DNA of 64,000 bases, taken from NCBI RefSeq assembly GCF_003018115.1, contig NZ_CP027458.1; one strand, given 5' to 3'. The stretch comes from Escherichia coli. Lineage in GTDB: Bacteria; Pseudomonadota; Gammaproteobacteria; Enterobacterales; Enterobacteriaceae. Shown here piece after piece: positions 1,326 through 4,300 of the stretch; positions within the stretch are counted from its first letter, which is position 1; every line of letters starts with the position of its first letter. The position numbers were made by a program.

Positions 1326-4300
1326 TCATTTCAATAAACCTGGCGACCTCTGCCATCCCTTCCTGATTTTCAGCCTGCCAGCGTTCAGCACGCAGTCGCC
1401 GGGCTTCGTTCTGCATGGTCGTACTGACCAGACCGGAGATATTCACGTCATACGCCTTGAGCAGCTGATAGCTGTCGCTGTCAACTGTCACTGTAATACG
1501 CTGCTTCATAGCACGCCTCTTTTGACATACTTCTGGTATGCATATCAGTATATATTATTATGATGCAAAAATCAGCGCATTAATACACATACTGTTATCT
1601 GGCTTTTAGTAAGCCTTATTTATTTTACCTTACATTATGTTAACCAATAAAAATTAAAATCAGACTTATAAAAACAAAGCGTAATTATCGAATGACCATT
1701 TCCGGCAGATCCGATTTTTCTGTTATTTACGGGTTTCCGGAAGTGTACCACGCTGAGGAAATCATCATATTGCTGTTTTCCTCCCCTGCGCGGCGCATCA
1801 CAGGTCAGGGAGATGACACAATATATAGTGCCATGAGCAGCTGAACTAAGCACTACATGTTGTGCTTACGGGAGATAGCGCTGTGCGGAGGGAAAGGAAG
1901 ATCCTGAACAGCCGGAAACCGGATCTGTGCGGCAGAGAACGGGCAGGAGATATGATAATTAAGCAGCACACATAAAATCATATCAGATATGATTTTCACC
2001 ATTAAATACAAAACCATATCTGATATTATCAGAAATCAATAACACACAAATCATGCAGGATGTGATTTTTACCTTTAAGAACATTATCAGATGGAGCGTG
2101 CAGGATGGATGAAGAAAGGGTGTTTTCACTCAGCTATGAACAACTAACCCAGTTTGCGGAACGACGCATCCGGGAATGCAATCTGGACAGCCAGGGCGCG
2201 ATTTATCTCTGCGAGTCAGCCAAAGCCGGAGCCGTGCTGATCTTCTGGCATGAACTGGCCATAAATGGCTATGCCTCAATGAATGCCATAAAGAGACAAG
2301 AGCTCATTGACGCCGACGTTCAGCGCCTCAGAAAGCTCATCTGGCCGGAGGATGGCTGGAAATGACTCAGAGCCGCCGACCGTCGCCACTGCAGCGGAGA
2401 GTGCTGATTGTGCTGGCTGCCCTTGATGAAAAACGACCGGGCCCCGTGCTGACGCGGGACATAGAACGGGTGCTGGAGCGAAGCGGGGAAGCCCCGGTCT
2501 ACGGGCCAAACCTGCGCGCCTCCTGCCGTCGTCTGGAGGATGCCGGCTGGCTGCGTACCCTGCGCGCTCCGAACCTGCAGCTGGCAGTAGAGCTGACGGA
2601 GGCCGGCCGGGCTGTGGCACAGCCTCTGCTGCTGGCAGAACAAGACCGCCTCCGGGCAGAACAGCGTGCGGCAGAAGTCGTCGTACTGCCGCTGGTCCCG
2701 GCAGCAGGTCTGCCCGCAGATGGCACTTCTGCCACTGATCTGGAGGTGGAGCTGAACGGCATAACGTATCAGGGCTGCCGTGGGGATTTTGTGGTGCGTC
2801 TCGACGGCAGCACCTGTCTGCAGTTATGGAATAAAGAAGGCAGGGTTGTACGCCGGGAGGGCGATCCGCTGGAAGTGGCGCAGTGGCTGCAGGCCTGTCA
2901 CGATGCAGGAATGGAGGTTCGTGTGCAGGTTAATGAAAGCATCACCCCGTAAAAACATGCCTGCACGGTTTACACATCATCCCATGGTGGCAGCCGGTTA
3001 ACTTTCCTGCGCCACCAGTGGAAAGAGGCCGTGAGCAGTCCGAACAAAAAACCCCCCGTGATACTTATAATTATGGCCTCACCTGCCACCATTCCTGACG
3101 GCCCCCAGTAGATAAACCACATTGCACATCCCCAAGAAATGCCCCATAAGCTCCCCATCAACAGCGTGACCTGCCAGAACGGCATAAAGGGTAATGGCGG
3201 AAGCCGGATACCCAGCCGCCAGAGAATACACAGAAGAGGAGGGGCATAATTGCTCCGCCACATCTTTTTGCTATCCATCAGGGCAATGGCCCGGGCTTTT
3301 TTCTGCTCAAAGGTCACAGGAGCACCTCCGTTCCATGATGTAAACGTGACACAGCTTATTGTTATTGATTATTATTATCATGCTGTGGTTATGTTGTCAT
3401 GCATCAGTACACTGACAAAAGTACAAAAGAAAGGAAAACAGGCAGATGAACAGAAAATATTATTTTAATAATATGTGGTGGGATGGGTGACGGGGGGATA
3501 TATGCTGTATATGTCATGGGATTATGATTTTAAATACAGATTACTGTTCTGGTGTATTTCTCTCTGCGGAATGGTTTTGTATCCGGTTGCAAAATGGTAT
3601 ATTGAAGATACAGCTCTGAAATTTACCCGGCCTCATTTCTGGAACAGCGTTTTTTTTGCTGATACACCTGGAAAAATGGGATTGCTTGCTGTTTATACGG
3701 GTACTGTTTTCATATTATCTCTTCCGTTAACTCTGATATATATTCTTTCTGTTATTATAAAAAGGCTGTCTGTAAGATAGACAGCCTTAAATACCCCAGA
3801 ACTTATTCGCTTTTTCCACAAGCGTTTCATCAATCAGTGCACCGATGACAGCCATCAGTAAACCATATCCGATAATGCCTAAAGCGCTTCCGGTAAGAAT
3901 ACTGAAGACCAGAGCAACAAGAGCCGTTGCGGCATTACCTGCTATGATGGTTTCTGTTTTAACAAAAAAAGGACGCCAGTTACCTGTCCGAGCAGCCTTA
4001 CCAAACTCAGTGATCCAGTCGGCAAAATTTGTAATTTTTCCTGCATATCCCAGTCCGCGACGGAACCTGTTCAGATTAGACGATATATCAGACAGTTTCA
4101 CAGCCATAGCCCCCGCAGAAAGAGTACCTGCGAGAGACGATATTCTGTACGGTTCATATATTCATCCGAGGCAGGAATATCGGCCCGGTACAATCTGTCC
4201 GGGCCGGATGGGTAATTTACAGGATGTTCGCGATGGATTTAGCCAGCTGCTCTTCCAGTACAGGCTTCGCTTCTTCAAACTTCAGGTTAACCTTGTTGGC

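What the first reader, a model, noticed from the sequence alone, without database searches (positions are those of the whole stretch)
3440..4110. Decayed pore-forming colicin module: channel-domain fragment plus immunity gene with a frameshifted start
The 106-aa minus-strand ORF is only the C-terminal channel-forming hairpin of a pore-forming colicin (ending ..GALIDETLVEKANKFWGI); everything upstream is replaced by the orphan traT segment. The convergent immunity gene is present, but the ATG at 3446 opens a different frame that stops after 14 codons, so the intact ORF can only begin at GTG 3475 or an internal Met. An orphan immunity gene, even if impaired, could still protect against colicin-producing neighbours.
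Basis: partly seen in the sequence, partly recalled or inferred. Interest (0 to 1): 0.5.

Follow-up and report, generated by a model that had tools for sequence, protein, structure and literature searches.

The report
Decayed colicin Ia gene remnant
This is the leftover tail of a colicin Ia toxin gene and its frameshifted immunity gene on a Shiga-toxin E. coli virulence plasmid; it is an ordinary genetic scar that public annotation already flags, not a working weapon.

Summary
The minus-strand ORF 3787-4107 (106 aa) is the last 105 residues (522-626) of colicin Ia: 90% identical to Ia and much more distant from Ib. It lacks the translocation domain, the receptor domain, roughly the first 40% of the channel domain including helix 1, and the promoter. 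Homology to full-length cia stops at 4103, inside an 8-bp microhomology (TTTCACAG) with DNA that normally lies just downstream of an F-like traT. The ATG at 4107 comes from that foreign DNA.

The convergent gene is the Ia immunity gene iia. A 1-bp deletion in a G4 run (window GGG 3480-3482) makes the native ATG 3446 frame stop after 14 codons. The rest of the ORF is intact. The likeliest restart is ATG 3502 (Met20, 92 aa, strong SD-like G6 run), which lacks the first of three predicted transmembrane segments.

The same cia/traT junction occurs in 42 plasmids of the pO113 family. In these plasmids iia is broken in at least three different ways and appears intact in only about 9, which indicates decay rather than maintained orphan immunity. 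The deletion allele marks one small clone: 11 of 935 iia-carrying records in complete E. coli genomes. RefSeq already annotates the fragment as a pseudogene. Interest is low.

The parts
2970..3317 (-). DUF6404 membrane-protein gene, a conserved left-hand neighbour of iia in every colicin Ia locus examined
   Evidence: Pfam PF19942 E=6.7e-36. It holds the same position in IncI and IncF ColIa loci.
3346..3375 (+). Candidate sigma-70 promoter for iia (GTGACA-18-TATTAT). This is a consensus match only.
   Evidence: 10 of 12 hexamer positions match. The total number of promoter-like sites in the region is no higher than in shuffled sequence, so the evidence is weak.
3446..3490 (+). Residual 5' end of iia: the native ATG, 14 codons (MNRKYYFNNMWWDG), then a premature TGA
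   Evidence: The native SD-like AAGGAAAA upstream gives a duplex dG of -5.6 kcal/mol.
3480..3482 (+). GGG run, the site of the 1-bp deletion (GGGG in intact alleles) that frameshifts iia at codons 12-13
   Evidence: Alignment A1 and the multi-plasmid alignment.
3475..3780 (+). Longest open frame of the displaced iia body (101 aa from GTG 3475, which has no SD)
   Evidence: The anti-SD duplex dG is +1.8 kcal/mol.
3502..3780 (+). Most plausible residual product: 92 aa from Met20. A G6 run 4 nt upstream acts as an SD-like element, and the ATG lies 11 nt after the premature stop.
   Evidence: Duplex dG -9.4 kcal/mol. RefSeq calls this CDS WP_001365566.1 on an identical plasmid. Another record calls only Met43 to the end, 69 aa.
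3762..3788 (.). Shared hairpin between the convergent genes (GGCTGTCT...AGACAGCC). It is terminator-like for the cia strand, and it overlaps the iia stop (TAG 3778-3780) and abuts the cia stop (3787-3789).
   Evidence: A 15-bp deletion between 3786 and 3787, relative to other ColIa loci, removes the T-rich tail on the iia side.
3787..4107 (-). 106-aa ORF. Positions 3787-4103 are the 3' end of cia (residues 522-626 of colicin Ia). The ATG at 4105-4107 comes from non-colicin DNA.
   Evidence: RefSeq annotates it as a pseudogene, 'incomplete; missing N-terminus'.
4096..4103 (.). Recombination junction: an 8-bp overlap (TTTCACAG) where homology to cia and homology to traT-downstream DNA overlap
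   Evidence: Alignment A3. The blast end-points are 4103 for cia and 4096 for the traT side.
4098..4157 (-). 19-codon 5' remnant (MNRTEYRLSQVLFLRGLWL*) of a small ORF that follows traT in an intact F-like tra operon. Its stop overlaps the start of the 106-aa ORF.
   Evidence: translation. The 86-aa homologue lies at L019 2792-3052.
4104..4216 (-). DNA normally found immediately downstream of traT. It includes a GC hairpin (about 4181-4208) that has no T tract.
   Evidence: It is 93-95% identical to the traT-traD interval of STEC17-183-type plasmids. The hairpin was read directly from the sequence.
4217..4948 (-). Orphan traT, the second traT copy in the window
   Evidence: Pfam PF05818 E=4.5e-82. 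It is 97% identical to STEC17-183 traT and 81% to F traT. The second copy lies at about 59464-60193.

Best explanation
The region is a non-functional scar of a colicin Ia operon (iia convergent with cia) on a pO113-family virulence plasmid of LEE-negative Shiga-toxin E. coli. An illegitimate recombination at an 8-bp microhomology joined cia codon 522 to a point 113 bp downstream of an F-like traT. This removed codons 1-521 (translocation domain, Cir-binding domain, and the first part of the channel domain including helix 1) together with the upstream DNA that would carry the promoter. The remaining 105 colicin residues cannot be exported, cannot bind or enter a target cell, and lack one of the four membrane segments of the open channel. 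The fragment is therefore inert as a toxin (inferred from the established colicin Ia mechanism). Later, in one sublineage, 15 bp were lost between the two stop codons, and one G was lost from a G4 run in iia. As a result the native start yields only a 14-residue peptide. If any immunity-related protein is made, it most likely starts at Met20 (92 aa). That start follows a strong SD-like G6 run and lies 11 nt after the premature stop. The product would lack the cytoplasmic N-terminus and the first of the three predicted transmembrane segments, so immunity is probably lost or badly reduced (inferred, not shown).
For: Identity and extent of the fragment. The end of homology, the microhomology and the foreign origin of the ATG. 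No other cia or promoter DNA in the window. Both unrearranged parent sequences exist on one plasmid, NZ_CP075653.1. The 1-bp deletion relative to intact 111-aa alleles on otherwise near-identical plasmids. The deletion is real and inherited. It occurs in 11 complete-genome plasmid records from different laboratories and countries, all in the same plasmid lineage, out of 935 records carrying this stretch of iia. Relaxed selection: among the 11 junction-bearing plasmids whose sequence I read (12 with the window), iia is intact in 4 and broken in the rest by different lesions. These are the G deletion; a K58 stop plus a T-run deletion in the pO113 type; and a T-run deletion alone in CP043938, which also carries a stop (G593*) in the colicin remnant. 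Extending by annotation and identity classes to all 42 junction-bearing plasmids gives about 9 intact (partly inferred). Start-site ranking by anti-SD pairing. Hydropathy shows a weak segment at about residues 7-25 and strong segments at about 29-50 and 76-108. E1-type immunity proteins, including Ia, have three transmembrane helices (PMC7064778). The open Ia channel needs H1, H6-H7, H8 and H9 (PMC2585860). RefSeq already labels the fragment a pseudogene.
Against: The body of iia (92 codons from Met20) is still intact, with a good SD-like element, so a shortened protein could be made and could retain some activity. Nothing here measures expression or immunity. The 106-aa ORF is open in most junction-bearing plasmids and lies on the traT strand, after a hairpin that lacks a T tract. 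It could therefore be transcribed by read-through and translated. Comparisons of the fragment with other alleles give pN/pS of about 0.2-0.3, but most of that variation predates the truncation.
Confidence: 0.88

Rival explanations
1. The frameshifted iia still works as an orphan immunity gene. Ribosomes that terminate at TGA 3488 reinitiate at ATG 3502 or at GTG 3475/3478, and the shortened protein still protects the host against colicin Ia from neighbours.
For: The ORF is intact from Met20 to the native stop. A strong SD-like G6 run (dG -9.4 kcal/mol) lies 4 nt before ATG 3502, which is 11 nt after the stop. RefSeq calls this CDS. Orphan immunity genes next to heavily truncated bacteriocin genes are common and are argued to be maintained by selection (PMC12546727). 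About 16% of complete E. coli genomes carry iia-like sequence, so colicin Ia producers are a realistic threat.
Against: The Met20 product lacks residues 1-19, that is the N-terminal tail and the first of three expected transmembrane segments. GTG 3475 has no SD. In the same plasmid family iia has been destroyed independently by a nonsense mutation and by other frameshifts, and appears intact in only about 9 of 42 plasmids. This does not fit selection for immunity in this family. All carriers of the G deletion are near-identical, so the intact remainder of the ORF says nothing about constraint.
Confidence: 0.15
2. The missing G is a sequencing or assembly error, or a reversible phase-variable switch in a homopolymer, and the gene is effectively intact.
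For: The lesion lies in a G run. One unrelated record with the same gap (CP088563.1) is a low-quality assembly with several other single-base gaps in this region and only 7 annotated features in the whole 33.6-kb record.
Against: A run of 3 or 4 G is too short for typical homopolymer error or for high-frequency slippage. Eleven complete-genome records from the USA, Korea, Japan, Italy-type dairy isolates and elsewhere share the allele, and all lie in one plasmid lineage. The other 924 records that match this stretch of iia do not show this exact allele. This is the pattern of a stably inherited mutation. No slippery heptamer for -1 frameshifting is visible between 3446 and 3490 (read from the sequence).
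Confidence: 0.03
3. The 106-aa colicin tail is an expressed, functional small membrane protein. Examples would be an intracellular toxin or a modulator paired with iia, transcribed by read-through from the orphan traT and translated by coupling to the 19-codon upstream ORF.
For: It lies on the same strand as traT. The intervening hairpin has no T tract. The upstream small-ORF stop (4098-4100) overlaps the ATG at 4107. A GGGGG lies just before the ATG (dG -8.6 kcal/mol). The ORF is open in most of the 42 plasmids.
Against: The SD-like run ends only 1-2 nt from the ATG, which is poor spacing. One family member has a stop at residue 593, another has ATG changed to GTG, and the related STEC17-183 cia carries a frameshift. 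The fragment lacks H1, which the open channel needs. Colicin channels open only with cis-positive voltage. From the cytoplasmic side the membrane potential therefore has the wrong sign, so a cytoplasmic fragment should not open a channel (inference). In this very lineage the partner iia is frameshifted, which would be lethal if the fragment were a toxin that needed neutralising.
Confidence: 0.03

Closest known systems
Colicin Ia operon (cia-iia) of IncI1/IncK and ColV-type IncF plasmids, e.g. CP057972.1 (626-aa colicin, 111-aa immunity protein)
   Same: The convergent gene order is the same, as are the left-hand neighbours (86-aa and 196-aa hypothetical proteins and DUF6404). The shared hairpin between the stop codons is present. 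DNA identity over window 3400-4103 is about 94%.
   Different: Here cia lacks codons 1-521 and its upstream region. iia has a 1-bp deletion. The spacer between the stop codons is 6 bp instead of 21 bp. The immunity protein differs at 4 positions (D64H, G69V, S95T, M96L), and the colicin tail differs at 9 positions.
Orphan immunity genes beside heavily truncated bacteriocin genes in E. coli plasmid clusters (PMC12546727)
   Same: An immunity gene sits next to a heavily truncated toxin gene, and the same truncation is preserved in many plasmids of different size and origin (42 records).
   Different: That study takes such orphans as evidence that immunity is maintained by selection. In this plasmid family the immunity gene is itself decaying by several independent lesions.
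Other cia truncations with intact iia: IS1-truncated cia in ColV-like plasmids (CP056868.1, 123 aa), KE50 (167 aa), STEC1588 p1 (208 aa)
   Same: A 3' remnant of cia is retained next to iia. The alleles are 96-97.5% identical to the window fragment.
   Different: The breakpoints and mechanisms differ: IS1 insertion or other deletions there, microhomology fusion to traT-downstream DNA here. iia is intact in those plasmids.
pO113 (NC_007365.1) and related LEE-negative STEC plasmids
   Same: They carry the same cia/traT junction, the same orphan traT, and the same ccdAB-...-RepFIB backbone.
   Different: pO113 keeps the G4 run and the 15-bp spacer, but its iia carries a nonsense codon (K58*), further frameshifts and a cluster of substitutions.

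Membership tests
Pore-forming colicin (colicin Ia) | C-terminal channel domain sequence of Ia type rather than Ib or another type | tested here: met
   90% identity to Ia residues 522-626. PDB 1cii gives E=1.9e-55, against 1.3e-23 for colicin Ib.
Pore-forming colicin (colicin Ia) | Complete ten-helix channel-forming domain, including helix 1 | tested here: not met
   The Pfam PF01024 match covers only profile positions 91-184 of 185. The fragment starts at residue 522 of a domain of about 177 residues.
Pore-forming colicin (colicin Ia) | N-terminal translocation domain and central Cir receptor-binding domain | tested here: not met
   tblastn of full-length colicin Ia against the whole window matches only residues 522-626.
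Pore-forming colicin (colicin Ia) | Own upstream promoter region (SOS-inducible in colicin Ia) | tested here: not met
   blastn of the cia 5' part plus 357 bp of upstream DNA finds nothing in the window. traT-derived DNA lies upstream instead.
E1-type immunity protein of pore-forming colicins (Iia; Pfam PF03526) | Sequence homology to the colicin Ia immunity gene, and convergent position next to the colicin gene's 3' end | tested here: met
   Pfam PF03526 E=1.3e-6, above its cut-off. The DNA is 97-99.8% identical to alleles annotated as colicin 1A immunity.
E1-type immunity protein of pore-forming colicins (Iia; Pfam PF03526) | Uninterrupted 111-codon reading frame from the native start | tested here: not met
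   A 1-bp deletion places TGA after 14 codons.
E1-type immunity protein of pore-forming colicins (Iia; Pfam PF03526) | Three transmembrane helices | tested here: inconclusive
   Hydropathy of the restored 111-aa protein shows one weak segment (about residues 7-25) and two strong ones. The Met20 product would lack the first segment. The three-helix rule is taken from PMC7064778. No structure or topology model was run.
E1-type immunity protein of pore-forming colicins (Iia; Pfam PF03526) | Protects cells against colicin Ia | not testable with these tools
   This needs a colicin sensitivity assay.
Maintained orphan immunity locus (sense of PMC12546727) | The same toxin truncation is shared by many distinct plasmids | tested here: met
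   42 plasmid records carry the identical junction at 93.6-100% identity.
Maintained orphan immunity locus (sense of PMC12546727) | The immunity ORF is kept intact across the plasmids that carry the truncation | tested here: not met
   Of the 12 junction-bearing sequences read (including the window), 8 are disrupted by at least three different lesions. Annotation classes suggest about 33 of 42 are disrupted (partly inferred).

The most novel reading that the evidence does not exclude
The 92-aa Met20 restart product, which lacks the N-terminal tail and the first transmembrane segment, might still confer useful colicin Ia immunity. That would show that two of the three helices of an E1-type immunity protein are sufficient. 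It would also mean this STEC plasmid clone keeps a minimal orphan immunity gene.
Probability: 0.12. Interest if true: 0.3.

Novelty: already known. Interest (0 to 1): 0.1.

Why it matters
It matters little beyond correct annotation. The region shows that this STEC virulence plasmid is not colicinogenic for Ia and is probably not Ia-immune. It provides a precise clonal marker set for a sublineage of pO113-family plasmids: the G deletion at 3480, the 15-bp spacer deletion, and the TTTCACAG junction. It is also a small counter-example to the view that orphan immunity genes beside truncated colicins are generally held by selection, because here the immunity gene is decaying in several independent ways.

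Tried and rejected
1. Colicin Ib type: rejected, because the Ia match is far stronger.
2. IS-mediated truncation: rejected. No IS abuts the junction, and an 8-bp microhomology explains it. IS1 truncation occurs in other plasmids at a different point.
3. Translocation or inversion of the missing cia 5' part elsewhere in the window: rejected.
4. Sequencing error or phase variation at the G run: rejected on the distribution of the allele. The one out-of-lineage carrier is a gap-ridden assembly.
5. Programmed -1 frameshifting: no slippery heptamer is visible (sequence inspection only).
6. Purifying selection on the 106-aa ORF: pN/pS values of 0.2-0.3 mostly reflect variation among cia alleles that predates the truncation. 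The two lineage-specific changes (S536R, T608I) are both non-synonymous, and one family member has an internal stop. This gives no support.
7. NCBIfam gave no family for either protein.
8. My first exact-match count of the deletion allele (80-bp query) undercounted carriers, because a nearby SNP (A3459T) lowered identity in some. A 60-bp query that avoided the SNP was used instead.
9. The review 'Colicin biology' (PMC1847374) is not held. The three-helix statement was taken from PMC7064778 instead.
10. No structure prediction or large protein-database search was run, because the answer did not depend on them.

Full report
**What is there.** The window closely resembles plasmid unnamed2 of E. 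coli O178:H19 strain 2012C-4431 (NZ_CP024291.1). Region 3300-4250 is 100% identical to it, although the window is not the same record (scattered differences and an indel elsewhere). It is a pO113-family virulence plasmid of LEE-negative Shiga-toxin E. coli carrying ehxCABD, espP, saa and iha. The local gene order is:
- integrase, ccdB and ccdA
- an 86-aa hypothetical protein, a 196-aa hypothetical protein and a DUF6404 gene
- the immunity gene on the plus strand
- the colicin fragment on the minus strand
- traT on the minus strand
- a traG fragment
- RepFIB repA.

**The colicin fragment.** ORF 3787-4107 (-) encodes 106 aa.
- It matches the colicin pore-forming domain (PF01024, E=3.1e-25), but only profile positions 91-184 of 185.
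- It aligns to residues 522-626 of a 626-aa colicin Ia at 90% identity.
- It matches PDB 1cii (colicin Ia) at E=1.9e-55, against 1.3e-23 for colicin Ib. The type is therefore Ia.
- Against a full-length cia locus (CP057972.1), DNA homology runs from upstream of the immunity gene to window 4103 and then stops.
- Neither blastn of the remaining cia DNA plus 357 bp upstream, nor tblastn of the whole colicin, finds anything else in the 64-kb window.

Colicin Ia needs its N-terminal and central domains for entry. Its open channel uses H1, H6-H7, H8 and H9 (PMC2585860). A fragment starting at residue 522 lacks H1 and everything needed for import, so I infer that it cannot act as a colicin.

**The junction.** Window 4096-4961 is 97% identical to the traT region of an F-like tra operon in plasmid NZ_CP075653.1 (STEC17-183). 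There traT is followed by an 86-aa small ORF, a 243-aa ORF and traD. The cia match ends at 4103 and the traT-side match begins at 4096, so the two parents overlap in TTTCACAG. This is a microhomology junction with no IS element.
- The ATG at 4105-4107 belongs to the traT-side DNA.
- A 19-codon remnant of the small ORF (ATG 4157 to TGA 4098-4100) overlaps that ATG.
- NZ_CP075653.1 carries both unrearranged parents.
- traT 4217-4948 is a second copy. A complete F-like tra block with its own traT lies at about 54967-63998.

**The immunity gene.** In three relatives the gene is 336 bp (111 aa) and is annotated as colicin 1A, or colicin E1 family, immunity protein.
- The window lacks one G of a GGGG run (GGG at 3480-3482).
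- From ATG 3446 the frame gives MNRKYYFNNMWWDG and then TGA.
- The rest of the protein is open in the other frame from GTG 3475.
- GTG 3475 and GTG 3478 have no Shine-Dalgarno pairing (dG above 0).
- ATG 3502 (Met20) follows a G6 run with dG -9.4 kcal/mol and lies 11 nt after the premature stop.
- RefSeq calls the gene from Met20 (92 aa) in one identical plasmid and from Met43 (69 aa) in another.
- Ia immunity belongs to the E1 type, which has three transmembrane helices (PMC7064778).
- Hydropathy places a weak first segment at about residues 7-25 and strong ones at about 29-50 and 76-108. A Met20 product would therefore lack the first segment.
- A 15-bp deletion between 3786 and 3787 shortens the spacer between the stop codons from 21 bp to 6 bp. 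It removes the T-rich stretch after the shared hairpin on the iia side.

**Distribution.**

| Feature | Count |
|---|---|
| Plasmid records carrying the cia/traT junction (all E. coli; those inspected are pO113-like) | 42, at 93.6-100% identity |
| Complete E. coli genomes carrying this stretch of iia | 892 of 5,426 |
| Records with the exact deletion allele (all 95-133-kb plasmids of one lineage) | 11 of 935 |

This pattern fits a stably inherited mutation, not a sequencing error or phase variation. The one out-of-lineage record with the same gap (CP088563.1) has several other single-base gaps in this region and almost no annotated genes.

**Decay in the family.** I read 12 junction-bearing sequences, including the window.

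| State of iia | Sequences |
|---|---|
| Intact | 4 (L002, L003, L011, L012) |
| G deletion | 4 (window, L001, L009, L010); L010 has a further deletion in the G6 run |
| K58 stop, T-run deletion and a cluster of substitutions | 3 (pO113 type: L006, L013, L015) |
| T-run deletion alone | 1 (L014), which also has a stop in the colicin remnant (G593*) |

Using annotation and identity classes for the rest gives about 9 of 42 intact. This figure is partly inferred. Several independent lesions in one plasmid family indicate relaxed selection on iia there.

**Comparison with the literature.**
- Truncated cia remnants in bovine and STEC-related plasmids have been reported (PMC6723558).
- Orphan immunity genes beside heavily truncated bacteriocin genes, with the same truncation kept across plasmids, have been described at scale and read as evidence for selection on immunity (PMC12546727).
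- Other cia truncations with intact iia exist, including an IS1-truncated form.
- The present locus is the same kind of object, except that its immunity gene is also decaying.

**Verdict.** The feature is ordinary, and public annotation already describes it. The one open question is whether a Met20 restart product keeps any immunity. I put that at about 0.12-0.15, and only a colicin sensitivity assay can settle it.

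Noticed in passing
window 4217-4948 and about 59464-60193: The window holds two traT genes. One is an orphan copy beside the colicin remnant. The other lies inside a complete F-like tra block (traG-traT-traD-traI) at about 54967-63998 on the minus strand.
   Followed up: partly
window 4962-5550: Upstream of the orphan traT lies AT-rich DNA unrelated to the traS of the closest tra operon. It contains a 39-aa ORF (5225-5344) that resembles the C-terminal end of an IS transposase. 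A traG fragment follows at 5340-5550 (80-89% identity to F and STEC17-183 traG). The whole stretch is a patchwork of tra debris.
   Followed up: partly
window 2105-3317: Three genes always accompany iia on its left in IncI and IncF colicin Ia loci: an 86-aa hypothetical protein, a 196-aa hypothetical protein and a DUF6404 membrane protein. This suggests a conserved five-gene ColIa module. None of the three has a known function.
   Followed up: partly
L006 (pO113) 3507-3860; window equivalent 3591-3690: pO113-type plasmids carry about 14 substitutions packed into about 100 bp of iia, together with a stop codon and a frameshift. This looks like either a recombined divergent segment or unusually dense pseudogene decay.
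   Followed up: no
plasmid records H51-H69: Several hundred IncF plasmids, including Klebsiella records, match only the iia half of the query (query positions 2-348, 98.3% identity) and show no match to the cia half. This looks like a widespread, fully orphan Ia immunity gene.
   Followed up: no
window 984-1509: The ccdA/ccdB toxin-antitoxin pair and a site-specific integrase (174-983) lie just left of the ColIa module, as in pO113.
   Followed up: no
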